A stretch of DNA of 64,000 nucleotides from Thermoplasmata archaeon (GCA_003551675.1 PUNG01000152.1:5377-69376); one strand, 5' to 3'. Shown: positions 30,790 through 53,479, numbered from the stretch's first letter. Program-made: numbers and translations. The notes: generated by a model not told the origin, from the sequence alone.

Positions 30790-31203
30790 ATGATTTACGA
30801 TATAGAGGTCAGAACGGAAAAACAACTACAAGTTGTAGATATCACCAAAGAGGTGGGCAAACATCTGGTAGATGTAGATGAAGGATCACTGACCCTTTTT
30901 GTTCCCCACACCACGGCGGCCTTGACCATACAGGAGGCTGACGAAGAACTATGGGACGATATGTTGGAGATCTATAAGAGACTGGTTCCCCTCAAAAACA
31001 ACTACAAGCATAATGCGAAGTATGGTGATATGACAGCGGAGCAAAACGCACACGCCCACATATTGAGCAGTCTGATCAAACCATCCGTTCATATACCCGT
31101 GAAGGACGGTAAGATGGTCTTGGGAACTTGGCAGAGAGTTCTTTTCATAGAGTTGGACGGAGGTAGGGCTCGAAAGGTGATGATGTATATATTGGAACCG
31201 TGA
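30790..31203 (+). CDS. YjbQ/UPF0047-family protein
   Basis: 137 aa with FVPHTTAALTIQEAD and the typical YjbQ length. Its start is 2 nt after the alaS stop. Confidence 0.6.
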   Translation: MIYDIEVRTEKQLQVVDITKEVGKHLVDVDEGSLTLFVPHTTAALTIQEADEELWDDMLEIYKRLVPLKNNYKHNAKYGDMTAEQNAHAHILSSLIKPSVHIPVKDGKMVLGTWQRVLFIELDGGRARKVMMYILEP

Positions 31204-31236: not shown

Positions 31237-31482
31237 TCATCCAAAGATGTTATCGAGTTCTTTTTTTACAGTCCCTCTGACCGACTTTCTGAGGCTTTTA
31301 GTTTCACACCTTGGACAGTCCACTTCTACTAGGCTCTTACCCTTTTCGATCTCTACGTCACCATGGAAAGAACAGTTGGAGCAGCTCATCCTTTCGATGT
31401 AGGTTCCCTTACCTTCTTCAGGAGTTTCCTCCTCTTGGTCAAGGTTTTCTTCTTCGTTGTTATATTCCATACTTTCAAACAA
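31237..31482 (-). CDS. Small acidic zinc-ribbon protein
   Basis: CSNCSF...CPRCET with an acidic N-terminus. Confidence 0.4.
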   Translation of the reverse strand: MFESMEYNNEEENLDQEEETPEEGKGTYIERMSCSNCSFHGDVEIEKGKSLVEVDCPRCETKSLRKSVRGTVKKELDNIFG

Positions 31483-32082: not shown

Positions 32083-32180
32083 TGGACCAGCGGGGATTTG
32101 AACCCCGGGCCTCCACCATTCTAGCGGAGATGTTTTCTCCCGTTGCCAAGGTGGCGATCTTCCAACTGATCTACTGGCCC
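32083..32180 (-). tRNA. tRNA-Ala (anticodon GGC) with ~25-nt intron in the anticodon loop; CCA not encoded
   Basis: The reverse complement folds as a tRNA. The acceptor GGGCCAG/CTGGTCC includes a G3:U70 wobble, the Ala identity element. The D-stem is GATC/GATC and the anticodon stem CCACC/GGTGG with loop TTGGCA-intron-. The T-arm is CGGGG TTCAAAT CCCCG and the discriminator is A. Confidence 0.75.
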
Positions 32181-41368: not shown

Positions 41369-43192
41369 TTAGATCAGGATGTTCACTCTTTTTCCTTTAT
41401 CTCTATCTCGGAGTATACGTTTTCCCACCCTGGTGCCTTTTCTTATCTTTATAGAACCGTCTTGTCCAACGGTCAGGGTCGAGACGTATTCGTTTTCCGA
41501 GTAGATATCTACACTCTTTCCTGAGTGTTGTGCTCCTATGTCTATCTCTATCTTATCCTTCAGTATGTTTATGTCTACGTTTTTCAGCTCAGAGCCGGTC
41601 TTTCTACGTTCTGCTTTTTCCCATAGAGGTTGGACGTCTATCCTCATATCAAAATCTTCTTCGATCCGTGAGATATTTCTACCGTTTTTACCTAATAAAC
41701 GAGGTATCTCACCGTCGGGCACGTAAACCGTCATCTTGTTAGAAGAGTCGACTTCAACTTCTACCCTTCCTTTAACATATCTCTTCATCTCTCTCCCGAT
41801 CTCACGTTCCGCCATATCCCATATAGGCTTTTTTGTTTTGTCTTCCTTTACGGGCATAACCACGACTTGTTCGCCGTAGGAATACACCTCGTATTCCAGC
41901 ATATCGCTTTCAAAGTCCCTGACCTCTATGACGGGTCGAGCCAAGTCTTCTTCTGTCATGCCTGCTGGAACTTTTACGGTATAGGTGACATCGTAAACTT
42001 TGTTGATCTCCCCCTCTTCCACATATACGATGGTATCCACTACCTGAGGTACCATCCCTAGTTCTACTCTTCCGATCAATCTTTGAAGGGCGTCGATAGC
42101 TCGATTCGCGTGAGTCACTCCTATCATACCGACTCCTGCCAATCTCATATCTGCGAAAACCTTGAAATCGGGAGTTTTTCTTACTTCGTCGTAGATCGTA
42201 TAGTCCGGTCTTACCAAGAGTAGTATGTCTCCTGTATCTTCCATCTTTCCGTCCAGACTGGTATATTGTGTTATCTCGTCTCCTACCTGTAGGTCCCTTG
42301 GTTTTTCCATGGTCTTCACCGTATAATCTAGATTTTTAAGGTATTCCGCGATCGCCTGGGCTAGGGTACTTTTTCCCGCACCCGGTGAACCCGCCAAAAG
42401 AACACCACGCTGCTTTTTTACCAATCTCTTTTTTAGCTTTTCTGATAACCTGTATTGCTCCAGTTCTATCTTGGCCACAGGTTTTACTGCGGTGATCTCG
42501 AAGCCGTCGGAGAATGGAGGTCTAGCTATAACTATCCGTATATCTTCAAGTTGTACTATGGTGGCACCTTCTTTGTCTATCTCTATGAATCCTTCAGAAG
42601 ATCGTTTAGTACTTTCGATGATATCATGGGCTATCTCTCTGAGTTCTTTTTCCGTTAAAACTTCGTCTTCGATTATCTTCGTGCTGATATCACCTGGAGT
42701 TCCCACTTTTGCTTTGGGTTTATCTCCCTTTCTCAGGTGTATCGACATCACATTTTCATGGAAATAATCTCTGATACTCTTATCCGTTTCTCCGTGATTG
42801 AGTTCGGGTTCTAAGTACTCTATGTTTAGTCCTTTTGCTTTGCCAACTTCGGCTTGAACTATGTCGCTGGTGATGAGGGTGGCTTTTTCGTCTATGGCGA
42901 GTTCACGTATGATAGAATCTATCTCTCCGCCGGGACTCAGTTTTTTTTGTTCAAGAGTGGGTCTTTTACCTGCAAAAGAGAGTTTTATCATTCCCTGCTC
43001 ATGATATTTTCTCAATTTTTGTATCTCTTCTAGTCCGCTCAAACCCGTCTCCTGGCCTCGATTGGCCTGTTCCTCTAGTTCGAACAAAACAGCCTCGGGT
43101 ACGATCACCTCCGCCCCTTGGTACAGACTCTCTTCTACTCTGTCCGTGATACGGCCATCGATTATAACACTGGTGTCTGGAACTATCTTCAT
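41369..43192 (-). CDS. PIN-domain / PhoH-like P-loop ATPase / KH-domain protein
   Basis: N-terminal PIN ([15 protein letters not shown]), Walker [13 protein letters not shown] and a C-terminal KH-like [12 protein letters not shown]. Confidence 0.7.
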
Positions 43193-43875: not shown

Positions 43876-45564
43876 TTGATTGTATGTCTGATGATAGAGA
43901 TAACCGACAGATGGGGACTCGCAAAAAAAGGCCTATGGGATTTCGAAGGCCATACCATAAAGATACCCAACGTATTTTTTCTTGAAGGAGATCGATTTAC
44001 TCCACCACAGGATGCCGAACTCACACTTTCCGTCGACCGCGGCTCTCTTTTCGATATCTCTAGTTTTTTTATAGATTACCATGAAAGTACGTTTCCAAGG
44101 ATCTTCTCTTATCCGGGAGTCATGGGTAACGTTTTAGTCCAGGAGAAAGACGGACATGAAAAGATACAGGTGGTATATCATCAGCCGTTGGATCCCGAAG
44201 CCGAACTCTATGTGGTGGGCAACGCTCCCGAACTCCTGCAGAGGAGCAGACTACTTTTTGAAAAGATAATAGGACTTAGGAAGGAGATAGATGAGCATAA
44301 GCTTATCTATGTACCGGGTATAGCACAACCTCAAAATATGGCTTTATTGACTTATCTAGGCGTTGATCTGTTTGATTCTACTTTTGCGGAGTTAGTCGGT
44401 TCAGAGGGCGTAGAACTGTCTGATTGGATGGGTTTTTCCGGTGAAACTGAAAAAAGCAAGTTGAATATGTTGAGAGAGCTCCGCCTCCTGCGCAAGGGTA
44501 TCGAACACGGCCGCATAAGGGAGCTGGTCGAGAGTCGGGTCAGCACCGAACCTTGGATGGTGGAGGTTTTGAGACATGCTGACCATGAACAGGAACTATT
44601 TTTGGAGGGCGTACCGGTGACAGGGGACGATGTTTACGTAACGACGAGAGAGAGTTTGAACAGGCCGGAGATAAAGAGATTTTCCCAAAGGATAAAATCA
44701 AGGTACGAGCCGCCGGAAAGAGAAGTTCTACTGCTTCTACCTTGTTCGGCTAGAAAGCCTTACTTTCGATCAAGGACTCATCAACGCATAAGGGAAGCGA
44801 CCCGGCAGGCAGATTGGACTAATATGCAGGAATTGATACTTACCTCTCCCTTAGGTGCGGTACCGAGAGAGCTTGAGCTCTTCTACCCTGCTCAACAGTA
44901 CGATATACCAGTTTCAAATATGTGGTTCAAGGAAGAGAAGGAACTTATCATAGGGCAGTTGAACACGGTGATGGACAAAGGAGACTACAAAAAAGTCATC
45001 TCTCACCTACCAAAAGATATGGAGTTCGTACCCGATAGTATCGAGTGTATAAACACCGCGGCAGGAGATCATCCAACCTCTTCCGAAGCCATAGATAGGC
45101 TTGCGAAAACAGTGAAAAACTTTACTGGACAGAAAAAGGGTGATGTACAGCGGTACTTACGAGAAAATCTTACATCCTTCGCCAGATTTCAATTCGGGAA
45201 GGAGGGCGAAGCCCTGCTCAAGGACGCAGAAGTCAAGGGCAGATACCCTCGTTATAGGATAATATCTAGAGGAAAACAGAGAGGTATGCTGGTCCCGGAA
45301 AGAGGTTTGATCTCCCTGACCATGGAAGGAGCTCGAAAGTTGAAGGAAAAAGGCATCTATCAGGCGCAGATCGATGATTTTGAACCCAAGGGAAGCGTGT
45401 TCGCCGTAGGGGTGAAAAAGGCGTCACATGAGATCAGACCTGAGGACGAAGTTATGGTCATGCACGAGGACGAGCTCAGAGGCGTCGGCCCGGCATCCAT
45501 GTCGGGAAAGGAGATGGAAAAAGCGAATAGAGGCGAAGCCGTAAGGCTCAGACATCACACTTAG
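43876..45564 (+). CDS. arcS: Archaeosine synthase ArcS-like (TGT-like domain plus C-terminal PUA)
   Basis: PCSARKPY matches the recalled PC-X3-KPY ArcS motif. The C-terminal PUA domain reads GSVFAVGV...EVMVMHEDELRGVG. Confidence 0.7.
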   Translation: MIVCLMIEITDRWGLAKKGLWDFEGHTIKIPNVFFLEGDRFTPPQDAELTLSVDRGSLFDISSFFIDYHESTFPRIFSYPGVMGNVLVQEKDGHEKIQVVYHQPLDPEAELYVVGNAPELLQRSRLLFEKIIGLRKEIDEHKLIYVPGIAQPQNMALLTYLGVDLFDSTFAELVGSEGVELSDWMGFSGETEKSKLNMLRELRLLRKGIEHGRIRELVESRVSTEPWMVEVLRHADHEQELFLEGVPVTGDDVYVTTRESLNRPEIKRFSQRIKSRYEPPEREVLLLLPCSARKPYFRSRTHQRIREATRQADWTNMQELILTSPLGAVPRELELFYPAQQYDIPVSNMWFKEEKELIIGQLNTVMDKGDYKKVISHLPKDMEFVPDSIECINTAAGDHPTSSEAIDRLAKTVKNFTGQKKGDVQRYLRENLTSFARFQFGKEGEALLKDAEVKGRYPRYRIISRGKQRGMLVPERGLISLTMEGARKLKEKGIYQAQIDDFEPKGSVFAVGVKKASHEIRPEDEVMVMHEDELRGVGPASMSGKEMEKANRGEAVRLRHHT

Positions 45565-45566
45565 CT

Positions 45567-47087
45567 CTAATATACCTTTTGAAGTCTTGGATGCTCTTCC
45601 AATATCATACCTTCAACTTTTAAAGGTTTCAAGTGTTTAGCTACCTTCACGGCTTCCTCTAATTCTTTCTTACTCTCAGAATACAATCTGTATAGGCATT
45701 CGTCCTTTTCTACCTTATCTCCCTTTTTCTTTTCCAAGAACAAACCAGCACCTTTACAGTGTGGTCCTCCTGCGGCTCTAACGATCCTGATTATCTCGTC
45801 ATTGTTTATACTGTTCACGTATCCTTCTTCTAATGAGCAGATCTCTTCGGAGTACTTTCCTATCTCGACATCTTCGGAACTTACTTCGGGATCACCACCT
45901 TGCCTGTCTATTATCTGTTTCATCTTGTCCAATGCCTTCCCACTTTTCAGGATCCGCTTAGCTTCTTTTTTTCCATTTCTTGAGCCCCCCAGCTCTAATA
46001 TCATGCCTGCTAGTGTAGTAGATTTTTCTATCAGGCTGGAAGGTACATCCTTACTCTCCAAAGCTCTCAGGGCTTCTTTCGCCTCTATGGCGGGCCCCAC
46101 AGCTCTTCCTACCGGTTGTCCGCCGTAGCTCAGGGCACATCTGGTTTCTATACCTATCTCCTCACCCAGTGAGACAAAATCCCGGGCATATCTTCGTCCT
46201 TCTTCCAGGCTTTTAACTTTGGTGTTTTCCCCTATAGGTATATCCATAACAAGATATTCCGCTCCTGCGGCTTTTTTCTTAGACAGGACCGAAGCCAATA
46301 CCTGGGCATAGGGGTCGATCCTCAAAGGATATTCGGCCTTTATTATCAGATCATCGCTGGGAGCCAGATTTACGGCGCCGCCCCATGCGATGGTTCCTCC
46401 TATATCCTCGGCGATCTCTTTTATCTGCTCCGTTGTCAAAGTAACATCGGCCAAAGTTTCGAATATATCTGCCGTACCTCCTGCGCTAGATATGGCCCTG
46501 GAGCTGGTTTTGGGTATCATCAGACCGGCGGCGGCGATGATGGGAACTATCAATAAAGTGATCTTGTTACCAGGAACGCCACCGATACTGTGGTGATCGA
46601 AGACGGGATGCTTGTCGAATTCTATCTTATCGCCTGTATCGATCATGGCTTGGGTAAGATCTTTTATCTCTCTCTGGTTCATACCCTGGGAATATACGCC
46701 CGAGACGTAGGCTGAAAGCTCTATATCCGATAAACGTCTTTCTACGATATCTTGGATTATCTCGTTGATAGCATGGGTAGATAATTCCTTTCCCTCCAAT
46801 TTTTCCCTTATATGTTCGACTGATTCGGGTCTGCCAGTTTGATTCACGCTCAGTCTTTTGCCTTCCTCCGCATGGATCTCGTCTACGATCTTTTCTACCA
46901 GGCCGATCTCTCCTTCGTCCACTAACGTTCTAGATACTTTTACCACTGCAGTGGTGTTTTTTCCATTTTTGTTAACCCTGACCCTGCTCTGACTTTGTAA
47001 CCCCATCCTTTTCGCATCTTCTTTGTGAAGGATAACAACATGTTCTTCAGATTCGAGATCTATGATCTTGGCAGTTAGTTTGATCAT
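45567..47087 (-). CDS. deoA: AMP phosphorylase (thymidine phosphorylase family)
   Basis: HSIGGVPGNKITLLIVPIIAAAGLMIPKTSSRAISSAGGTADIFE; about 505 aa. The start is assumed at MIKLTAKIIDL. Confidence 0.85.
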   Translation of the reverse strand: MIKLTAKIIDLESEEHVVILHKEDAKRMGLQSQSRVRVNKNGKNTTAVVKVSRTLVDEGEIGLVEKIVDEIHAEEGKRLSVNQTGRPESVEHIREKLEGKELSTHAINEIIQDIVERRLSDIELSAYVSGVYSQGMNQREIKDLTQAMIDTGDKIEFDKHPVFDHHSIGGVPGNKITLLIVPIIAAAGLMIPKTSSRAISSAGGTADIFETLADVTLTTEQIKEIAEDIGGTIAWGGAVNLAPSDDLIIKAEYPLRIDPYAQVLASVLSKKKAAGAEYLVMDIPIGENTKVKSLEEGRRYARDFVSLGEEIGIETRCALSYGGQPVGRAVGPAIEAKEALRALESKDVPSSLIEKSTTLAGMILELGGSRNGKKEAKRILKSGKALDKMKQIIDRQGGDPEVSSEDVEIGKYSEEICSLEEGYVNSINNDEIIRIVRAAGGPHCKGAGLFLEKKKGDKVEKDECLYRLYSESKKELEEAVKVAKHLKPLKVEGMILEEHPRLQKVY

Positions 47088-47091
47088 GGGT

Positions 47092-48321
47092 TCACATCCA
47101 TTTATCAAGGGCCTTTTTTAACTCGGTATGCTCTTTTGCATACTCTCTCAATCCGATCCCCGAACAGACGGCATCTACAGCTTGCGTCAACGCCTTAGCT
47201 CCCGCCATCACTCCGTCCGGGTGACCCGAGACACCTCCTCCTGCTTGTATTTGAACGTCTTTACCGCTCACATCCATGAGTTCTTGTACTAATCCAGGAT
47301 GGAGTCCGCCGCTTGAAACCGGCATCACTTTTTTTAAGTCGTGTTCTTCACCTAGTAATACTTCTTTCGAAAATAGCTCTTCAGATATGTCGGCGTGCAT
47401 CTTTCCGGCCCCGTACGTACCCGTATGCAGAGCGTCTCCTCCTGCCATCCTTACCAGTTTGGCTATGACAGGCATGGAGATCCCGTGGTCTGGATTTTTT
47501 GTTATGGCTCCGTGCATGGCTCTATGTACGTGTATAGGCACATCCACTGAAGGATCTTCAGCCAAAGCCTGTAGACCGGGGAACCCTACGGTCAAAACGT
47601 CCACCATAAGTTGTCTAGCACCGTTTTCCAATGCTATATCCGCCGCATCCAATATCTCATGGGCGTTGGTACTGATGTTGTGGGCATGTATCATCTGGTG
47701 ACCTTCTTCTTGAAGCAGGTCCAGCTTTTCACTCACACAGTTTACCCTATCTTCCAAGGGACAGAAGTCTTGGTCCACCAGGGTCTCGTCGTCTTTAGAG
47801 TTAGTGAGTCCACCCTTTCCCGCCTGGTAAACGTAGTCGGCGAATTCCTTGGGTGGCAGTCCTATCTTCGGTTTCACGATGGTCCCTACTAGAGGTTTTT
47901 TAGGTCTGTTAAGTATCGTTCTCAAACCCTCCAGGCCGAATCGGGGTCCAGGATAGTTTTTTACGAGCTTAGAGGGCATCTCTAGATTCACTAAACGCAC
48001 TCCCTCTAACGAATCTAAACCAAAAAGGTTGCCGGCGATTATACTCAAAATCTGGGGGATACCTCCTATGTCGCCTGAAAAATCTATTACAGGGTAGCCT
48101 ATCCTGACTTTGTCGTTCTTGGCCTCAGTAACTTTTGCTCCGTACCTCTGGAATATATCATCCGATAGGGTGGTAGGATGAGTCCAAGTTCCTGTGGATT
48201 CTTCTTCGGCTATCCTCACTCCCGCGGTTTTTATATCCAAGTCGCTTTTGACGGTATATTCACATATCACATACTCTTCCGGGTCTAACTCTTCATCCAA
48301 TGCTAAGTAATCCATACTCAT
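47092..48321 (-). CDS. rbcL: Ribulose-1,5-bisphosphate carboxylase, form III large subunit
   Basis: RuBisCO large-subunit motifs (GGLDFTKDDE-like TNSKDDETL; VSSGGLHPGLV; GGGVSGHPDG). The ATG at 48319..48321 overlaps the TGA stop of the upstream isomerase gene (ATGA). Confidence 0.9.
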   Translation of the reverse strand: MSMDYLALDEELDPEEYVICEYTVKSDLDIKTAGVRIAEEESTGTWTHPTTLSDDIFQRYGAKVTEAKNDKVRIGYPVIDFSGDIGGIPQILSIIAGNLFGLDSLEGVRLVNLEMPSKLVKNYPGPRFGLEGLRTILNRPKKPLVGTIVKPKIGLPPKEFADYVYQAGKGGLTNSKDDETLVDQDFCPLEDRVNCVSEKLDLLQEEGHQMIHAHNISTNAHEILDAADIALENGARQLMVDVLTVGFPGLQALAEDPSVDVPIHVHRAMHGAITKNPDHGISMPVIAKLVRMAGGDALHTGTYGAGKMHADISEELFSKEVLLGEEHDLKKVMPVSSGGLHPGLVQELMDVSGKDVQIQAGGGVSGHPDGVMAGAKALTQAVDAVCSGIGLREYAKEHTELKKALDKWM

Positions 48322-49241
48322 GATTCCATCTCCTTTATTATTCGGTATGCTCCTTCGGGCGATATGACCCCGTTTTCGGTTATTATACAATCTATATATT
48401 CCGAAGGAGTCGCGTCGAAAACGGGGTTTCTTATCTCAACACCAGGAAATTTTTTGGGATCTACGATCTCAGAGGGGTCCCTTTCCTCGATGGGCACCAG
48501 ATCACCGAATGCAGTTTTTCTCGAAAATTTATAACTCTCCGCACAGACGGTGAGAGGCACCCTCGCTTCGTTTGCACACAATGCCACCTGAGATGTACCG
48601 ATCTTGTTGATAACCGCTCCGTTAGAGGTTATGGTATCCGCTCCCACATAAACTTTATCCACGTCTTTCATGGTATGTCTTACGGCGGAATCCACGATGA
48701 GAGTAACGGGTACTCCTACGTTAGAGAGTTCTTTGATGGTTATGTAGCCCTGTTTTTTGGGACGTGATTCGGTGGCGATCACTTTTATGTTCTTACCTTG
48801 ATCCCACGCGTACTTGATCGCGGCCAATGCTAAGGAACTGTTGCAGTGAGTCAATATCACATCGTCTTCTCCGATCCTTTTACCACCGTATTCTGCTATA
48901 TTCTCCTTCGCTTCCAATGAACGTTGGATAAAATCCGAGCAGTTCTTCTTTATCCTTTTTTTCAGTCGTTCAACGTCTTCTTCTTTTTGCGCTCCTTTCA
49001 TGGCACACACAAGGCAGTTCTCTAGAGACACCGCAGTTGGCCTAGTACTGAGCAATTCAGATCTGCATCTTTCCAATTCCTTTAAAAGATCTTCTTTATC
49101 TTCGTTTTCAAACTCTTCTATGACTTTTTTAAGCGCATGGGCTCCAGCCCTAGCTATCTCAGCGGCCCCTCTTATCTCCATGCATTCTATCTTTTCAGCG
49201 ATCTCTTGTATATCGAGTTTCTCTATATCTTCGCACTCCAT
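48318..49241 (-). CDS. Ribose-1,5-bisphosphate isomerase (eIF2B-like family)
   Basis: eIF2B/MtnA-like fold (VILTHCNSSLALAAI...VGADTITSNGAVINKIGT) and a position directly upstream of rbcL. Confidence 0.8.
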   Translation of the reverse strand: MECEDIEKLDIQEIAEKIECMEIRGAAEIARAGAHALKKVIEEFENEDKEDLLKELERCRSELLSTRPTAVSLENCLVCAMKGAQKEEDVERLKKRIKKNCSDFIQRSLEAKENIAEYGGKRIGEDDVILTHCNSSLALAAIKYAWDQGKNIKVIATESRPKKQGYITIKELSNVGVPVTLIVDSAVRHTMKDVDKVYVGADTITSNGAVINKIGTSQVALCANEARVPLTVCAESYKFSRKTAFGDLVPIEERDPSEIVDPKKFPGVEIRNPVFDATPSEYIDCIITENGVISPEGAYRIIKEMES

Positions 49242-49287
49242 GGATAGAGAAAATAGACATATGCTTTAAAAAACCTTTGTAACCTTC

Positions 49288-49938
49288 TCACATATCTAGG
49301 ACATCAAAGAGAGCGGACAGATCCTTTTCTTCTATGACCCAATCCGCAGATCTTTTTACCTTTTCGTCGTCCGGATTGAATGCTATACCCAATCCAGCCC
49401 TTTCAAGCATGGGCGCATCGATATGACTGTTTCCTATGGCTACGCATCGTTCTTTTTTTATGCCTTCTTCGGAGAGCAGTTTTTCGAGGATATCCCCTTT
49501 GTTTTTCAAAGGTACGTCTACGATCCCACGGGAGCTCAACCTTCCTTCATGATCTTTTATATCGTTGGCAAATATCCTGTCAAAGTATTCTCCGCCTACG
49601 TGTTCCGCCAAAGGCTTCAAACCGCCGCTGATTATCGCCGTGTTGTAATTCTCTTTTAGAGAAGGTATCACTTTATGAAAACCTTTCATCACAGGTGCTG
49701 TTTTCAATATGTCTATGATATCTTGTCTCGATATGTTAGGTTCGGCGGACTTCCAAAGTTCGATATCTCTTCTGATGAATTCACCATCGTCTATATCGCC
49801 TCTTTCGTACGCTTTTAAAGAATCTTCGTTATCGACTCCGAATCTATCGTGGATCCATGCCCATGAACTTTTCGCATCGATGAGCACACCATCCATATCG
49901 AATACGATGATCTTCCAATCTGAACTCATTTTATCCAT
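49288..49938 (-). CDS. HAD-superfamily phosphatase (PSP-like)
   Basis: Motif I IVFDMDGVLID and motif IV GNSHIDAPML. Confidence 0.75.
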   Translation of the reverse strand: MDKMSSDWKIIVFDMDGVLIDAKSSWAWIHDRFGVDNEDSLKAYERGDIDDGEFIRRDIELWKSAEPNISRQDIIDILKTAPVMKGFHKVIPSLKENYNTAIISGGLKPLAEHVGGEYFDRIFANDIKDHEGRLSSRGIVDVPLKNKGDILEKLLSEEGIKKERCVAIGNSHIDAPMLERAGLGIAFNPDDEKVKRSADWVIEEKDLSALFDVLDM

Positions 49939-51862
49939 TTATCTCGTCCATGCTCTTTTTGTACTTCTTTAGATTTTCAAAACTTTTTTTGACGTCTCCT
50001 CTTTTTAGAGCTTTGTTCGTTTCTTTTAGATATTTCACGGGTTTCGATACGTCAGCACCCTTTATTTTTGCCTCTTTCAATTTGTTTTTTGCACCTTTTA
50101 TCTCATCTCTCAAGATCGCTGGCAGCTCATCGGATAATTTATCCTCCGCTTGTAAAAGGAATTTTCTAGATATCTGTGGATTTTTTTGTTTACTCCTCTC
50201 TTTCGCTTTTTTCAGCAGTTTTTCGGCTTCAGGAAACTTAAAACCATGTTCTTTTACGTCTTTTATTATACCTTCTAGTACGGCGATATCTTTTTTCACC
50301 TCTTCCATGACCTCTTTTTTATCCTCGGCTTTTTCTTTTCGTTTCTCCTCTATCTTTTCTTTCGCCTTTTCTATGGACTCAGAAACTTTTTCATAATCCT
50401 CTTGGTCTCTATACTTTTTTATGTCTTCTATTATGGTGCCTCTCTCTTTTTGTGGCAGTCGTCTCTCTATATTTTTTATCTTTTCGTTTATCTGGTTTTC
50501 GAGTTTTTTCTGGAAAAATATCTTACACTCATTTAATGAATTCAAGGCATCCTCGTATTCGTTATCCTTTGTCTTTTTCACAGCTTGGTTGATCAGTTCT
50601 TTCCCATCTTTAACGTCGACATCGAAGTTTTTAGCGGTTTTCAGAAGCGCCGTCATCTCGGGTATCTTCTGTTGTATTTTCTTGAAGTGATCCTTCTTAT
50701 CTTGATCTTTGAAAACCAATTTTTTTTCTAAAGTCTTCTTCATCTCTGCGATATTTTCATCTAATAGATCTTTTGCTTCAGTGAAATCACCATGTTCCGC
50801 TTTGTCCATGGCCTCATCTATTTTATTTGAATATTCGCTGGTGTCTACGCCTTTAAGACTGAGTTTTTCCAGATGTGATTTAGCTTCGGCGGCGTCTTCG
50901 GCAACATCGTACAAACTTTCTGACATCTTTTGCGCACTCATAAGGCTGTGGTAGCTCGCCAGTATCCGGTTTTTTTTCTTTTCTTTTTCAGCTTTTTTCA
51001 GCATCTTTTTGATCCGGTGGGTTTTGATGATCTTCTTCTCTAACTCCGAAAGTATCTCTTGAATCGATTTTTTCTTCTCTTTCATCACCTTTGAGAATTC
51101 GTGTTTTTTCGTCAGTCCCATATCCTCGACGACTTCTTCTACGTCCCTTTCGACTTCTTTCGCCTTTTTCGCCGCTATGGCATACTCGCCTATTTCACAA
51201 CCCCTGTATACCTGATCCAACCAACCTTCGATCTCAGATGCATCAGTCTTTTGGGAGATCCATTCAAGGTAATTCTTGCATCTTTCCAACCTTTCCTTTA
51301 TCTCTTCAGCGTGACTTATGGTGATCTTCAATCGTTCCATCAGTGTATTTTCTCTTTCAGGATCTAATTCGTCGGTCTTTTTTACTTCTTCGAGATCCTC
51401 TTTTATCTCCTCCAATCCTATTCCAAATCGGTCCAACTTCCCTATCCTTTTTTCAAAAGATTCGATGCTGTCTTCTTCCTCTACTTCGTCTATTTCGACC
51501 TCATCCTCCTCTTCCTCTGCTTCGAACACAACGCCACACTCAGGGCATTTAGAAGCGTCATCCGAGACCTCGCTCTCGCATATGGGGCACTCAAAGGTGA
51601 AGAAACTTTCATCTTCGGACTCTTCTAAGATATCCTCTTCAGACAGCCCCAACTCTTCGAGATCACCTATCAGTTCTTCTTCGTCCTCCTCGTCGAGTAC
51701 CAGACCCATGACTTTTTCTATGGATTCCTCTGATACTTCTTCATCTAGATCTATACCTTCCTCGAAAAGGTTTAGATCAGCTTTGCACACAGGGCATCTA
51801 TCTTTGCCCTGGGGTACCTCTGAATCGCAGACTGGACATGGTCTTTTAGAATCTTTTGCCAA
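49931..51862 (-). CDS. Double zinc-ribbon, acidic, long coiled-coil protein of unknown function
   Basis: N-terminal CPVCDSE...CPVCKAD and CPICESE...CPECGV zinc ribbons, D/E-rich linkers and about 450 aa of K/E-rich predicted coiled coil. Confidence 0.5.
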   Translation of the reverse strand: MAKDSKRPCPVCDSEVPQGKDRCPVCKADLNLFEEGIDLDEEVSEESIEKVMGLVLDEEDEEELIGDLEELGLSEEDILEESEDESFFTFECPICESEVSDDASKCPECGVVFEAEEEEDEVEIDEVEEEDSIESFEKRIGKLDRFGIGLEEIKEDLEEVKKTDELDPERENTLMERLKITISHAEEIKERLERCKNYLEWISQKTDASEIEGWLDQVYRGCEIGEYAIAAKKAKEVERDVEEVVEDMGLTKKHEFSKVMKEKKKSIQEILSELEKKIIKTHRIKKMLKKAEKEKKKNRILASYHSLMSAQKMSESLYDVAEDAAEAKSHLEKLSLKGVDTSEYSNKIDEAMDKAEHGDFTEAKDLLDENIAEMKKTLEKKLVFKDQDKKDHFKKIQQKIPEMTALLKTAKNFDVDVKDGKELINQAVKKTKDNEYEDALNSLNECKIFFQKKLENQINEKIKNIERRLPQKERGTIIEDIKKYRDQEDYEKVSESIEKAKEKIEEKRKEKAEDKKEVMEEVKKDIAVLEGIIKDVKEHGFKFPEAEKLLKKAKERSKQKNPQISRKFLLQAEDKLSDELPAILRDEIKGAKNKLKEAKIKGADVSKPVKYLKETNKALKRGDVKKSFENLKKYKKSMDEING

Positions 51863-51989
51863 AGGGTTAGCACCTCGTGTAGCTGGTGAAAAAGATAGGA
51901 TAGCATATAAAGGTTTTATGTTGATATATTAATGAAACGGTACTCACTCACCAAAATCTTTTAAACTACCTCGATACCATGGTCATCCG

Positions 51990-53255
51990 ATGACTCTCAT
52001 AGAAAGATGTGAAAAAAGCGTACCTGAACAGGTCGTTAAAGCGGTGGAGAACGAACCCATAGACTCTAAGAGATTGGCTCGTCTGATAAAAAACGGTCGA
52101 GCGGTCATACCCTACAATCCTATCCACGGTCCTGAACCGATCCCGATCGGCAAAGATATGAAAGTGAAGATAAACGTTAATCTTGGCACCTCTAGAGACC
52201 ATAAGGATGAGGACCTAGAACTGAAAAAATTAAAGGTGGCGGAAGAATACGGGAGCCACGCGGTCATGGATTTAAGCACAGGTGGAGATATCGACAGGGT
52301 GAGAAGGAAAGTGATAGATAACACCGATCTACCTGTGGGTACCGTTCCAATATACCAATGCGGCCTTACCAAGGCGAGAGAGTCATCCGTAGTGGATATG
52401 AATTCTGATGAGATGTTCAACAGTGTGAGGAAGCACGCCAGAGACGGTGTTGACTTTGTAACGGTACATTGTGGCGTCACGAAAAAAGCTATCGACAGTT
52501 TGAAGGAATGTGGAAGATTAACAGACATAGTGAGCAGAGGTGGATCCTTTTTAGCGGCGTGGATATTACACAATCAAGAGGAAAATCCACTCTACCAGGA
52601 ATTCGATTACCTTTTGGAGATCGCTAGAGAATACGACCTAACTTTGAGTTTAGGCGACGGGTTGAGACCTGGTTCCATAGCAGATGCTACTGATAGACCG
52701 CAGATACAAGAATTGATCACACTCGGTGAACTGGTAAAAAGGTCGAGAGAGAAAAAAGTACAGGCCATGGTCGAAGGACCGGGTCACGTGCCCCTTGATC
52801 AGATAAGTGCTAACGTTAAGATACAAAAGGAGATATGTGACGGAGCACCCTTTTACGTGCTTGGTCCTCTTGTTACCGATTTCGCACCGGGCTATGATCA
52901 TATCTCCGGAGCTATAGGAGGCGCGTTGGCTGCATATCATGGTGCAGATTTTCTTTGTTATGTAACTCCTGCAGAGCACCTGGGTCTTCCCGACGTCGAA
53001 GACGTAAAAGAAGGCGTCATAGCCTCTAGGATAGCTGCCCACGCCGCCGATATAACCAAAGGTATAGACGTCGATATAGATGATGACCTATCAAAGGCGA
53101 GAAAAGAGCTCAACTGGGAAAAGATGTTCGAAAAAGTGGTGGATCCTAAAAAAGCTAAAAAGATGAGAAAAGAAAAGAACAGTGCGGACGAGGATGTATG
53201 CTCCATGTGCGGAGACGTCTGTGCCATAAAGATGGTTGAAGATCAATTTCGGTAA
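51990..53255 (+). CDS. thiC: Phosphomethylpyrimidine synthase ThiC
   Basis: IVSRGGSFLAAWI and the C-terminal CSMCGDVCAIK radical-SAM-like cluster motif. Confidence 0.85.
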   Translation: MTLIERCEKSVPEQVVKAVENEPIDSKRLARLIKNGRAVIPYNPIHGPEPIPIGKDMKVKINVNLGTSRDHKDEDLELKKLKVAEEYGSHAVMDLSTGGDIDRVRRKVIDNTDLPVGTVPIYQCGLTKARESSVVDMNSDEMFNSVRKHARDGVDFVTVHCGVTKKAIDSLKECGRLTDIVSRGGSFLAAWILHNQEENPLYQEFDYLLEIAREYDLTLSLGDGLRPGSIADATDRPQIQELITLGELVKRSREKKVQAMVEGPGHVPLDQISANVKIQKEICDGAPFYVLGPLVTDFAPGYDHISGAIGGALAAYHGADFLCYVTPAEHLGLPDVEDVKEGVIASRIAAHAADITKGIDVDIDDDLSKARKELNWEKMFEKVVDPKKAKKMRKEKNSADEDVCSMCGDVCAIKMVEDQFR

Positions 53256-53328: not shown

Positions 53329-53479
53329 GCCGAGGTAGCTAAGCCTGGACCAAGGCGCCGGCCTTGAGAGCCGCCGATCAGAGGAAAGTCTTCACGGGCT
53401 TTCCTCGAGCCGGGATTCCCGGCGATCAAGCAAGCCGGTGGCGCGCTGCGCCTCAGGAGTTCGAATCTCCTCCTCGGCG
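53329..53479 (+). tRNA. tRNA-Ser (anticodon UGA), type II, with 64-nt intron at canonical 37/38 position
   Basis: The acceptor GCCGAGG/CCTCGGC is a perfect 7-bp helix and the discriminator is G. The D-arm is GCU...GGC and the anticodon stem CCGGC/GCCGG with loop CUUGAG-intron-A. A 16-nt variable-arm hairpin reads UGGCGCGCUGCGCCUC. The T-arm is AGGAG UUCGAAU CUCCU. The intron spans 53369..53432 and has its own hairpins. Confidence 0.7.

What the first reader, a model, noticed from the sequence alone, without database searches (positions are those of the whole stretch)
45567..51862. AMP-salvage/RuBisCO operon (R15P isomerase-rbcL-AMPpase) preceded by HAD phosphatase and a zinc-ribbon coiled-coil protein
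The three enzymes of the archaeal AMP pathway are contiguous on the minus strand. The R15Pi stop and rbcL start overlap as ATGA, and the rbcL to AMPpase junction is a few nt. Directly upstream in the same orientation are a HAD phosphatase (DMDGVLID) and a 643-aa double-Zn-ribbon coiled-coil protein whose stop overlaps the HAD start. If these are co-transcribed, the HAD enzyme could be a phosphoglycolate phosphatase for the RuBisCO oxygenase side-product, or a nucleotidase feeding the pathway. The coiled-coil protein might scaffold or regulate the complex.
Basis: partly seen in the sequence, partly recalled or inferred. Interest (0 to 1): 0.55.

Follow-up and report, generated by a model that had tools for sequence, protein, structure and literature searches.

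The report
AMP-salvage RuBisCO operon with unrelated neighbours
This is an ordinary archaeal three-gene AMP-salvage/RuBisCO operon in a salt-loving Thermoplasmata archaeon, and the phosphatase and zinc-ribbon rod protein just upstream look like a separate two-gene unit with its own promoter, not part of the pathway.

Summary
The five minus-strand genes are real, and the junctions are as described. R15P isomerase, a form III RuBisCO with a complete catalytic residue set, and AMP phosphorylase form the known e2b2-rbcL-deoA cluster. That cluster is kept in all 80 related genome loci, which span Halarchaeoplasmatales, Methanomassiliicoccales and Syntrophoarchaeum.

The upstream pair looks like a separate unit.
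- A BRE/TATA motif sits 37-42 nt before the isomerase ATG in 28 of 29 clade sequences. It is there whether the upstream gene is the HAD, the rod protein or inserted genes. This fits a leaderless promoter for the operon.
- The rod-protein gene has its own conserved promoter, a GAGGTG ribosome site and a TTG start. It overlaps the HAD gene.
- The pair is next to the operon only in this halophilic order. Four loci lack the HAD and one has a 6-kb insertion.
- The unrelated convergent archaeosine synthase gene is at least as conserved a neighbour.
- HAD and rod-protein homologues outside the clade lie in unrelated contexts.

The HAD is a HAD-IB, phosphoserine-phosphatase-like enzyme. It falls below every phosphoglycolate-phosphatase threshold and lacks the phosphoserine-binding residues. 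The rod protein is a chain of three-helix bundles from a large uncharacterised Thermoplasmata family.

Verdict: known kind, low interest. Transcriptional read-through is not excluded.

The parts
45567..47087 (-). AMP phosphorylase (deoA-type), third gene of the operon
   Evidence: TIGR03327 equivalog at 667 bits against a cutoff of 535. The ATG lies 4 nt after the rbcL stop, with GGATGTGA just upstream. The gene is present after rbcL in 77 of the 80 related loci; the other three contigs end first.
47092..48321 (-). RuBisCO large subunit, short (409 aa) form III type
   Evidence: Pfam RuBisCO_large N and C domains. The closest solved structures are archaeal form III enzymes (6hun, 2cwx, 1geh; E 1e-76 to 1e-82). 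Catalytic residues present: E40, T45, W46, N98, K150, K152, K176, D178, E179, H266, R267, H270, H299, K307, S337, G338, G339, G361-363. The start overlaps the isomerase stop as ATGA, with GGAG 9 nt upstream.
48318..49241 (-). Ribose-1,5-bisphosphate isomerase (e2b2 family), first gene of the operon
   Evidence: TIGR00511 equivalog at 384 bits against a cutoff of 314. Cys133 and Asp202 are present. There is no Shine-Dalgarno site, and the ATG lies 25 nt after the conserved TATA motif.
49267..49280 (-). Predicted BRE/TATA promoter of the AMP operon (ACAAAGGTTTTTTA), giving a leaderless or near-leaderless mRNA. Its T6 run may also end the upstream transcript.
   Evidence: The motif mCRAAGRTTTTATs starts 37-42 nt before the isomerase ATG in 28 of 29 clade sequences. 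The rest of the spacer is not conserved. The motif is present whether the HAD, the rod protein or inserted genes lie upstream.
49288..49938 (-). HAD-IB phosphatase, phosphoserine-phosphatase-like, substrate unknown. The real start is possibly the ATG at 49929.
   Evidence: HAD-IB subfamily TIGR01488 at 62.8 bits against a cutoff of 45. Archaeal PSP-like TIGR01491 at 135.8 against 151.9; SerB at 96 against 144; archaeal phosphoglycolate phosphatase at 35 against 123. The closest solved structure is M. jannaschii PSP, E 2.6e-13. The PSP substrate residues E20 and R56 are not kept, and motif IV reads GNSHID.
49931..51862 (-). Rod protein with two zinc ribbons: two CPxC-x10-CPxC ribbons, acidic disordered linkers, then about seven tandem three-helix bundles
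   Evidence: Weak DZR and Zn_ribbon_3 hits below their cutoffs. AlphaFold2 model with mean pLDDT 82.4 and an alternating pattern of short helix then long helix. Only generic three-helix-bundle matches, EzrA included. The family has 1172 representative clusters, with named members in Thermoplasmata.
51871..51919 (-). Predicted promoter (ATAAAACCTTTATAT, 51919-51905) and Shine-Dalgarno site (GAGGTG, 51876-51871) of the zinc-ribbon/HAD unit
   Evidence: The TATA-like motif, the GAGGTG 7-8 nt before the start, and the TTG/GTG start codon are conserved across about 20 clade loci.

Best explanation
The region holds two adjacent transcription units, each with its own promoter, in a halo(alkali)philic Thermoplasmata archaeon (order Ca. 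Halarchaeoplasmatales/Haloplasmatales).

Unit 2 is R15P isomerase, RuBisCO and AMP phosphorylase, the known archaeal AMP/pentose-bisphosphate pathway. AMP plus phosphate gives adenine and ribose-1,5-bisphosphate. The isomerase converts that to ribulose-1,5-bisphosphate. RuBisCO then carboxylates it to two 3-phosphoglycerate. The unit is driven by its own BRE/TATA promoter and starts with a leaderless isomerase mRNA. The two downstream genes are translationally coupled through the ATGA overlap and short gaps with Shine-Dalgarno-like sites.

Unit 1 is the zinc-ribbon rod protein plus the HAD-IB phosphatase. It is a leadered bicistron with its own promoter, a strong ribosome-binding site and a weak TTG start.

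Its place next to the AMP operon is a lineage-specific, tightly packed neighbourhood (ThiC | rod-HAD | e2b2-rbcL-deoA | ArcS). It is not evidence of a shared function.

Shown here: gene identities, catalytic residues, conserved promoter-like motifs and their spacing, and synteny limits. Inferred: promoter activity, the leaderless start, and the lack of functional coupling.
For: - Family scores above the equivalog cutoffs for AMPpase and R15P isomerase.
- Complete RuBisCO catalytic set, invariant across 13 homologues. R15Pi has Cys133 and Asp202.
- The three-gene order is kept in all 80 genome loci, down to 55% RbcL identity. It is documented in the literature (10.1101/386292; PMC5113843 is the earlier report of this nucleoside-pathway RuBisCO in uncultivated bacteria).
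- A conserved 14-nt BRE/TATA motif lies 23-28 nt from the isomerase ATG in 28 of 29 sequences, with otherwise unconserved spacers of 18-110 nt. It persists when the HAD is missing (L026, L027, L029, L030) and when 6 kb of opposite-strand genes are inserted (L031).
- A separate conserved promoter, GAGGTG site and TTG start precede the rod-protein gene. The rod-HAD overlap is 4 nt in most loci.
- The HAD and rod protein are absent within 10 kb of rbcL in all 48 non-halophilic loci.
- HAD homologues at 37-48% identity, and a Methanomassiliicoccales rod-protein homologue, lie in unrelated contexts.
- The unrelated ArcS gene is at least as conserved a neighbour.
Against: - Inside the order, the rod-HAD pair stays next to the operon even though genes further out are rearranged: 0-1 of 32 loci keep them. 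That could reflect selection.
- The rod protein stays directly upstream of the isomerase even where the HAD is lost.
- The spacers are short, often 41-59 nt, and most lack a clear oligo-T terminator. Read-through from unit 1 into unit 2 is therefore plausible.
- Promoter and leaderless status are inferred from motif conservation only. There are no transcript data.
Confidence: 0.7

Rival explanations
1. Five-gene functional module. The HAD-IB enzyme is an accessory phosphatase of the pathway, and the rod protein scaffolds or regulates it. Candidate roles for the HAD are removing 2-phosphoglycolate from the oxygenase side reaction, dephosphorylating RuBP or R15P, or making R15P from PRPP. The pair would be co-expressed with the operon by read-through.
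For: - Same strand, with short spacers of 18-110 nt.
- Adjacency is kept in 23 of 28 informative clade loci, while more distant genes are shuffled.
- There is precedent for HAD phosphatases acting on RuBP in archaea: the haloarchaeal RuBP phosphatase (PMC9700705) and TK2301 (PMC11032457).
Against: - A conserved independent promoter sits in front of the isomerase.
- The HAD is lost in four loci that keep the operon, and a 6-kb insertion is tolerated in L031.
- There is no association outside the order.
- The HAD scores far below the cutoffs for archaeal phosphoglycolate phosphatase (35 against 123 bits; 40 against 198). It has no HAD-IIA PGLP-type domains.
- The characterised haloarchaeal RuBP phosphatase occurs in Rubisco-less species, in an operon with a Ru1P aldolase (PMC9700705). 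That aldolase is absent here.
- The ArcS control shows that adjacency in this clade is not specific.
Confidence: 0.15
2. The HAD is simply the organism's housekeeping phosphoserine phosphatase, and its position is coincidental. At most it reflects a loose link through 3-phosphoglycerate, the precursor of serine.
For: - The best family matches are the archaeal PSP-like TIGR01491 (135.8 bits) and SerB TIGR00338 (96 bits).
- The closest solved structure is M. jannaschii phosphoserine phosphatase.
- Some sources name homologues 'phosphoserine phosphatase'.
Against: - Both scores are below the curated cutoffs (151.9 and 144.15).
- The PSP residues that hold the substrate's amino and carboxylate groups (E20, R56) are replaced. 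A family-specific SSWxW(V/I)H signature follows motif I instead.
- The first Asp of motif IV is Asn in this clade.
Confidence: 0.12
3. The cluster is a methionine-salvage-like set (MtnA isomerase, RuBisCO-like enolase MtnW, HAD-IB phosphatase MtnX) and not an AMP pathway.
For: The domain families are the same as in the B. subtilis mtnA/mtnW/mtnX genes. There are weak hits to MtnW (263 bits), MtnA (207 bits) and the MtnX-like HAD-IB family (29.5 bits).
Against: - All those scores are below their cutoffs (409, 279 and 81.55).
- RbcL keeps every carboxylase residue, including K176, D178, E179 and K307.
- The isomerase passes the R15P isomerase equivalog cutoff.
- A bona fide AMP phosphorylase is the third gene.
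Confidence: 0.03

Closest known systems
Archaeal AMP (pentose bisphosphate) pathway: AMP phosphorylase, R15P isomerase and form III RuBisCO of Thermococcus kodakarensis. Clustered e2b2-rbcL-deoA versions occur in CPR bacteria, DPANN and other archaea.
   Same: The same three enzyme families, with RuBisCO between the isomerase and the phosphorylase as in most clustered examples (10.1101/386292). The catalytic residues of RuBisCO and the isomerase are kept.
   Different: The host is a halophilic Thermoplasmata order. RbcL is a short 409-aa type shared with Methanomassiliicoccales and Syntrophoarchaeum, and it scores below the NCBIfam form III cutoff (383 against 497 bits). No activity has been measured.
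Haloarchaeal non-carboxylating pentose bisphosphate pathway (R15P isomerase, HAD-type RuBP phosphatase, Ru1P aldolase; PMC9700705)
   Same: A HAD-superfamily phosphatase gene lies next to an R15P isomerase gene in a halophilic archaeon.
   Different: - That pathway occurs in species without Rubisco, and its HAD gene forms an operon with a FucA-type aldolase. Here RuBisCO is present and no aldolase is nearby.
- The window HAD is a HAD-IB, PSP-like enzyme.
- No halobacterial protein appeared among its 108 homologues.
- The two sequences could not be compared directly.
2-Phosphoglycolate phosphatases of archaea (TK1734, PGLP-type; TK2301/Ta0175, HAD-IIB type; PMC11032457)
   Same: Both are HAD-superfamily phosphatases in an organism with a form III RuBisCO.
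   Different: The window HAD matches the archaeal PGP models only over its C-terminal 70 residues (35 and 40 bits against cutoffs of 123 and 198). It has no PGLP-type domains. TK1734 is not adjacent to rbcL either.
EzrA and other spectrin-like rods of tandem three-helix bundles
   Different: - The N-terminus has two zinc ribbons where EzrA has a membrane anchor.
- There is no sequence relationship.

Membership tests
AMP phosphorylase (TIGR03327) | Whole-protein score above the curated equivalog cutoff | tested here: met
   667.3 bits against 535, covering residues 4-498.
Ribose-1,5-bisphosphate isomerase (TIGR00511, e2b2) | Score above the equivalog cutoff, plus the catalytic Cys133 and Asp202 of the T. 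kodakarensis enzyme (residue roles from my own knowledge) | tested here: met
   383.8 bits against 314.1. HCNS at 132 and GAD at 200 place Cys133 and Asp202.
Bona fide RuBisCO (forms I-III, as opposed to RuBisCO-like form IV) | Complete set of catalytic and RuBP-binding residues: carbamylated Lys, Asp/Glu metal ligands, the loop-6 Lys, and the P1/P2 phosphate-binding residues | tested here: met
   E40, T45, W46, N98, K150, K152, K176, D178, E179, H266, R267, H270, H299, K307, S337, G338, G339 and G361-363 are present. They are invariant in 13 homologues.
Form III RuBisCO (NCBIfam TIGR03326) | Score above the curated equivalog cutoff | tested here: not met
   383.4 bits against 497.45. It is still the best-scoring model, and the nearest solved structures are form III. 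The protein is about 20-35 residues shorter than those enzymes. No tree was built to place it among forms III-a, III-b and III-c.
Form III RuBisCO in the AMP pathway | Carboxylase activity on RuBP made from AMP | not testable with these tools
   Needs an enzyme assay.
Single operon containing all five genes | No internal promoter or terminator, and co-conservation of all members | tested here: not met
   A conserved BRE/TATA lies before the isomerase gene. The HAD is absent in 4 clade loci, separated by 6 kb in 1, and absent in all 48 loci outside the clade. The transcripts themselves were not observed.
HAD-IB subfamily (TIGR01488) | Score above the cutoff, HAD motifs I-IV, and a C1 cap between motifs I and II | tested here: met
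   62.8 bits against 45. Motif I is FDMDG (13-17), II is ISGG (103), III is K147, and IV is GNSHID (169), with Asn replacing the usual first Asp.
Phosphoserine phosphatase (SerB TIGR00338; archaeal PSP-like TIGR01491) | Score above the cutoff, and the phosphoserine-binding residues (E20 and R56 of the M. jannaschii enzyme; residue roles from my own knowledge) | tested here: not met
   96.1 bits against 144.15, and 135.8 against 151.9. E20 aligns with K23 or S24, and R56 aligns with a conserved Asp.
Archaeal 2-phosphoglycolate phosphatase (TIGR01487 / PRK01158; PGLP type) | Score above the cutoff over the full length, with a HAD-IIB or HAD-IIA cap | tested here: not met
   35.1 bits against 122.75, and 40.4 against 198, over residues 145-212 only. 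No Hydrolase_6 or Hydrolase_like hits.
Haloarchaeal RuBP phosphatase (Halxa_2271 / VNG_1202C) | Sequence orthology, and an operon with the FucA-type Ru1P aldolase | tested here: inconclusive
   No aldolase gene lies in the window neighbourhood or in the clade loci. The reference sequence was not obtainable: one search found none in the supplement, so no direct alignment was made.
MtnX-type HAD-IB phosphatase (TIGR01489) | Score above the cutoff | tested here: not met
   29.5 bits against 81.55.
Double zinc ribbon (Pfam DZR PF12773) | Score above the gathering threshold | tested here: not met
   24.8-25.0 bits against 27.3. However, all eight Cys of the two ribbons are invariant in 15 homologues, so two zinc ribbons are very likely.

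The most novel reading that the evidence does not exclude
[quoted passage not shown] The phosphatase has an unusual Asn in its Mg-binding motif IV and a family-specific SSWxWxH cap signature. It would act on a pathway sugar bisphosphate or on 2-phosphoglycolate. The rod protein would organise or regulate RuBisCO. Selection for co-expression by read-through would explain why the pair stays beside the operon while the surrounding genome is shuffled.
Probability: 0.1. Interest if true: 0.5.

Novelty: new member of a known kind. Interest (0 to 1): 0.2.

Why it matters
The result adds the halophilic Thermoplasmata (Ca. Halarchaeoplasmatales) to the lineages that carry a compact e2b2-rbcL-deoA AMP-salvage operon. 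It also gives comparative evidence for that operon's promoter and leaderless start.

It warns against reading function into same-strand neighbours in tightly packed archaeal genomes. Here a tRNA-modification gene is as faithful a neighbour as the phosphatase.

The only open leads are two uncharacterised families: the archaeal PSP-like HAD-IB group, and a large Thermoplasmata family of zinc-ribbon three-helix-bundle rods, some of them giant. Neither is tied to RuBisCO by the evidence.

Tried and rejected
- **Methionine-salvage reading (MtnA/MtnW/MtnX).** Rejected on the scores and the complete carboxylase residue set.
- **Phosphoglycolate phosphatase identity for the HAD.** Rejected on the family scores.
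- **Haloarchaeal RuBP phosphatase lead (PMC9700705).** It could not be aligned because no reference sequence was available. The context does not match: there is no aldolase and Rubisco is present.
- **Pfam and NCBIfam on the rod protein.** Only sub-threshold zinc-ribbon hits.
- **ARAGORN.** It found no tRNAs in the window, although Rfam found two long, presumably intron-containing ones.
- **Rfam at gathering thresholds.** No riboswitch or other RNA anywhere in the window, so none in 45.4-52.1 kb.
- **Sigma-70 promoter scanner.** Not used, because the organism is an archaeon. Promoters were inferred from cross-species conservation instead.
- **Literature searches on Ca. Halarchaeoplasmatales/Haloplasmatales.** The search returned no paper that discusses this gene cluster.


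Full report
**Observation**

- a 643-aa zinc-ribbon/helical protein, 51862-49931, with a TTG start;
- a 216-aa HAD hydrolase, 49938-49288;
- ribose-1,5-bisphosphate isomerase, 49241-48318;
- the RuBisCO large subunit, 48321-47092;
- AMP phosphorylase, 47087-45567.

The junctions, read from the sequence:
- The isomerase stop and the rbcL start overlap as ATGA.
- The rbcL stop is 4 nt from the AMPpase ATG.
- The zinc-ribbon gene's TAA overlaps the first HAD ATG by 8 nt. It lies 1 nt before a second ATG at 49929, which fits the orthologues' N-termini better.
- A 46-nt spacer separates the HAD from the isomerase.

The flanking genes are archaeosine synthase ArcS and ThiC. ArcS (43876-45564, +) is convergent, and its stop lies 2 nt from the AMPpase stop. 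ThiC (51990-53255, +) is divergent.

**Identity of the three pathway genes**

- AMP phosphorylase passes its curated equivalog cutoff: 667 bits against 535.
- R15P isomerase passes its cutoff: 384 bits against 314. It keeps Cys133 and Asp202.
- RbcL has both RuBisCO domains. Its closest solved relatives are archaeal form III enzymes. It keeps the full catalytic and RuBP-binding set: K150, K152, K176, D178, E179, H266, R267, H270, H299, K307, S337-G339 and G361-363, plus E40, T45, W46 and N98. All are invariant in 13 homologues.
- RbcL is a short 409-aa type. It scores below the NCBIfam form III cutoff (383 against 497), so I call it form-III-like by best match and residues. No tree was built.

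**Organism and comparative set**

The closest RbcL homologues (74-84% identity) come from MAGs named Thermoplasmata, Ca. Natronoplasma, Saliniplasma, Halarchaeoplasma and Haladaptatiplasma. These belong to the halo(alkali)philic order Ca. Halarchaeoplasmatales/Haloplasmatales (PMC11332174, PMC11287216). One scan of species-representative genomes returned 80 loci with up to 10 kb on each side. Thirty-three are from this order. Forty-seven are from Methanomassiliicoccales, Syntrophoarchaeum and relatives, at 55-60% identity.

**The three-gene core is universal; the upstream pair is not**

tblastn of the seven window proteins against the 80 loci finds R15Pi-RbcL-AMPpase in this order wherever the contig allows. 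This matches the published observation that RuBisCO usually sits between e2b2 and deoA when the genes cluster (10.1101/386292). PMC5113843 is the earlier report of this nucleoside-pathway RuBisCO in uncultivated bacteria.

The HAD and the zinc-ribbon protein are found only in the halophilic order. The tally comes:

| Arrangement | Count |
|---|---|
| HAD directly upstream of the isomerase | 23 of 28 informative loci |
| No HAD; zinc-ribbon gene directly upstream (L026, L027, L029, L030) | 4 |
| 6 kb of opposite-strand genes between HAD and isomerase (L031) | 1 |
| Zinc-ribbon gene directly upstream of the HAD | 19 of 22 informative loci |

In the Saliniplasma-type loci other genes intervene between the zinc-ribbon gene and the HAD. 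In Methanomassiliicoccales the gene upstream of the operon is often a different protein of about 570 aa.

A synteny map of all window ORFs shows a bounded conserved block. The number of loci with a hit covering more than half of each query was:

| Gene | Loci with a hit |
|---|---|
| PIN-ATPase | 10 |
| ArcS | 27 |
| AMPpase | 30 |
| RbcL | 32 |
| R15Pi | 30 |
| HAD | 24 |
| Zinc-ribbon protein | 12 |
| ThiC | 11 |
| Genes further out | 0-1 |

The zinc-ribbon count is low because that protein diverges fast. The unrelated convergent ArcS gene is at least as faithful a neighbour as the HAD, at about 29 of 30 informative loci. Adjacency in this tightly packed block is therefore not specific evidence of a shared function.

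**Promoters**

I aligned the 60 nt before the isomerase ATG in the window and 28 clade loci. Only one segment is conserved: a BRE/TATA-like motif, consensus mCRAAGRTTTTATs. The rest of the spacer has near-zero information.

A Gibbs search places the motif start 37-42 nt before the ATG in 28 of 29 sequences, with 23-28 nt between the motif end and the ATG. In the 29th, L031, the same motif is visible at about -40 by eye. The motif is present whatever lies upstream.

With a TATA box about 25-30 nt from the ATG and no Shine-Dalgarno site, the simplest reading is a leaderless or near-leaderless mRNA starting at the isomerase. This is an inference from established archaeal promoter geometry. By contrast, rbcL and the AMPpase gene have GGAG and GGATGTGA upstream, as expected for internal cistrons.

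The zinc-ribbon gene has a different conserved arrangement:
- ATAAAACCTTTATAT about 45-55 nt upstream of the start;
- a GAGGTG site 7-8 nt before the start;
- a TTG or GTG start codon.

It overlaps the HAD gene by 4 nt in most loci.

The region therefore reads as two units: the zinc-ribbon/HAD pair, and e2b2-rbcL-deoA. The spacers are short (18-110 nt) and only some carry T-runs. In the window the T6 run is part of the TATA motif. Read-through cannot be excluded.

**What the HAD is**

- It is a HAD-IB enzyme: TIGR01488 at 62.8 bits against a cutoff of 45.
- Its best specific models are the archaeal PSP-like group (135.8 against 151.9) and SerB (96 against 144). Both are below cutoff.
- The nearest solved structure is M. 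jannaschii phosphoserine phosphatase.
- In the alignments the PSP residues that bind the substrate's amino and carboxylate groups (E20, R56) are not kept. Their roles are from my own knowledge.
- The family has a nearly invariant SSWxW(V/I)H segment after motif I.
- In this clade the first Asp of motif IV is Asn (GNSHID).
- Matches to archaeal phosphoglycolate phosphatases are partial and far below cutoff (35 against 123 bits; 40 against 198). There are no PGLP-type domains.
- The known archaeal 2-PG phosphatases TK1734 and TK2301 belong to those other HAD classes (PMC11032457).
- The haloarchaeal RuBP phosphatase works in Rubisco-less species, in an operon with a Ru1P aldolase (PMC9700705).
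- HAD homologues at 48%, 37% and 39% identity sit in unrelated neighbourhoods.

The substrate is unknown. Nothing points to 2-phosphoglycolate.

**What the zinc-ribbon protein is**

- All eight Cys of two CPxC...CPxC ribbons are invariant in 15 homologues. The Pfam hits are just below threshold.
- The AlphaFold2 model (mean pLDDT 82.4) shows two small ribbons, disordered acidic linkers, and about seven repeats of a 15-residue helix followed by a 35-50-residue helix. That is a chain of three-helix bundles.
- A profile search finds the repeat module in 1172 representative clusters, 191 of them at E<=1e-30. They range from 393 to 7,686 residues, with up to 33 repeats.
- The members sampled by Pfam carry zinc ribbons or helix-hairpin-helix domains. 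Most named members are Thermoplasmata or Methanomassiliicoccales hypothetical proteins.
- A Methanomassiliicoccales member lies beside a KaiC-like ATPase, a DUF835 ATPase and PGK, not AMP-pathway genes.

The family is uncharacterised and is not generally linked to RuBisCO.

**Verdict**

The AMP-pathway operon is a new member of a well-known kind.

I put about 0.7 on two independent units with no obligatory functional link. I put about 0.15 on an accessory-module reading, and smaller weights on a housekeeping-PSP or methionine-salvage reading. Transcript mapping and a substrate screen of the HAD would settle it.

Noticed in passing
window 32083-32180 (-) and 53329-53479 (+): Rfam finds two tRNA genes of 98 and 151 nt, far longer than a mature tRNA, so presumably intron-containing archaeal tRNAs. 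ARAGORN reported none. The second lies just downstream of ThiC.
   Followed up: no
window 49432-49415 (HAD residues 169-174, GNSHID): In the halophilic clade the first acidic residue of HAD motif IV, normally a Mg2+ ligand, is Asn. More distant homologues keep Asp. The effect on catalysis is unknown.
   Followed up: partly
window 49931-51862; proteins P0250, P0252, P0258: The helical repeat of the zinc-ribbon protein belongs to a large uncharacterised family of 1172 representative clusters. It includes giant proteins of 3,000-7,686 aa with 17-33 repeats. It has no Pfam model.
   Followed up: partly
window 51860-51876 and clade loci: The zinc-ribbon gene uses a conserved TTG or GTG start behind a strong GAGGTG ribosome site in nearly all clade members. 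This is an unusual, conserved weak-start arrangement.
   Followed up: no
window 45564-45567: The stop codons of the convergent ArcS and AMP phosphorylase genes are 2 nt apart. That leaves no intergenic terminator, so their transcripts must overlap at the 3' ends.
   Followed up: no
L025 17-1837, 1909-3870, 6417-8336: One relative carries three zinc-ribbon/helical paralogues within 8 kb upstream of the operon. The Saliniplasma-type locus L021 has a helix-hairpin-helix variant 2 kb upstream of the HAD.
   Followed up: no
L001, L064, L077; proteins P0159, P0287: Several records with near-identical loci are labelled Aenigmatarchaeota, Faecalibacterium, Eggerthellaceae or Lentisphaeria. Their loci, or their closest homologues, match Thermoplasmata, so the bins are probably contaminated or mislabelled.
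   Followed up: no
window 41369-43192 (-): A 607-aa PIN-domain, secretion-ATPase-like and KH-domain protein lies next to the block. It is kept in 10 clade loci.
   Followed up: no
window 31241-31254 (+): This is the only other site in the 64-kb window that matches the isomerase-promoter motif matrix above threshold, at 15.1 bits. It lies just after the ORF 30790-31203.
   Followed up: no
window 47092-48321: The 409-aa RbcL and its Methanomassiliicoccales and Syntrophoarchaeum relatives (411-419 aa) form a short-RuBisCO group. The window protein scores below the NCBIfam form III cutoff despite a complete active site. Its place among forms III-a, III-b and III-c was not determined.
   Followed up: partly
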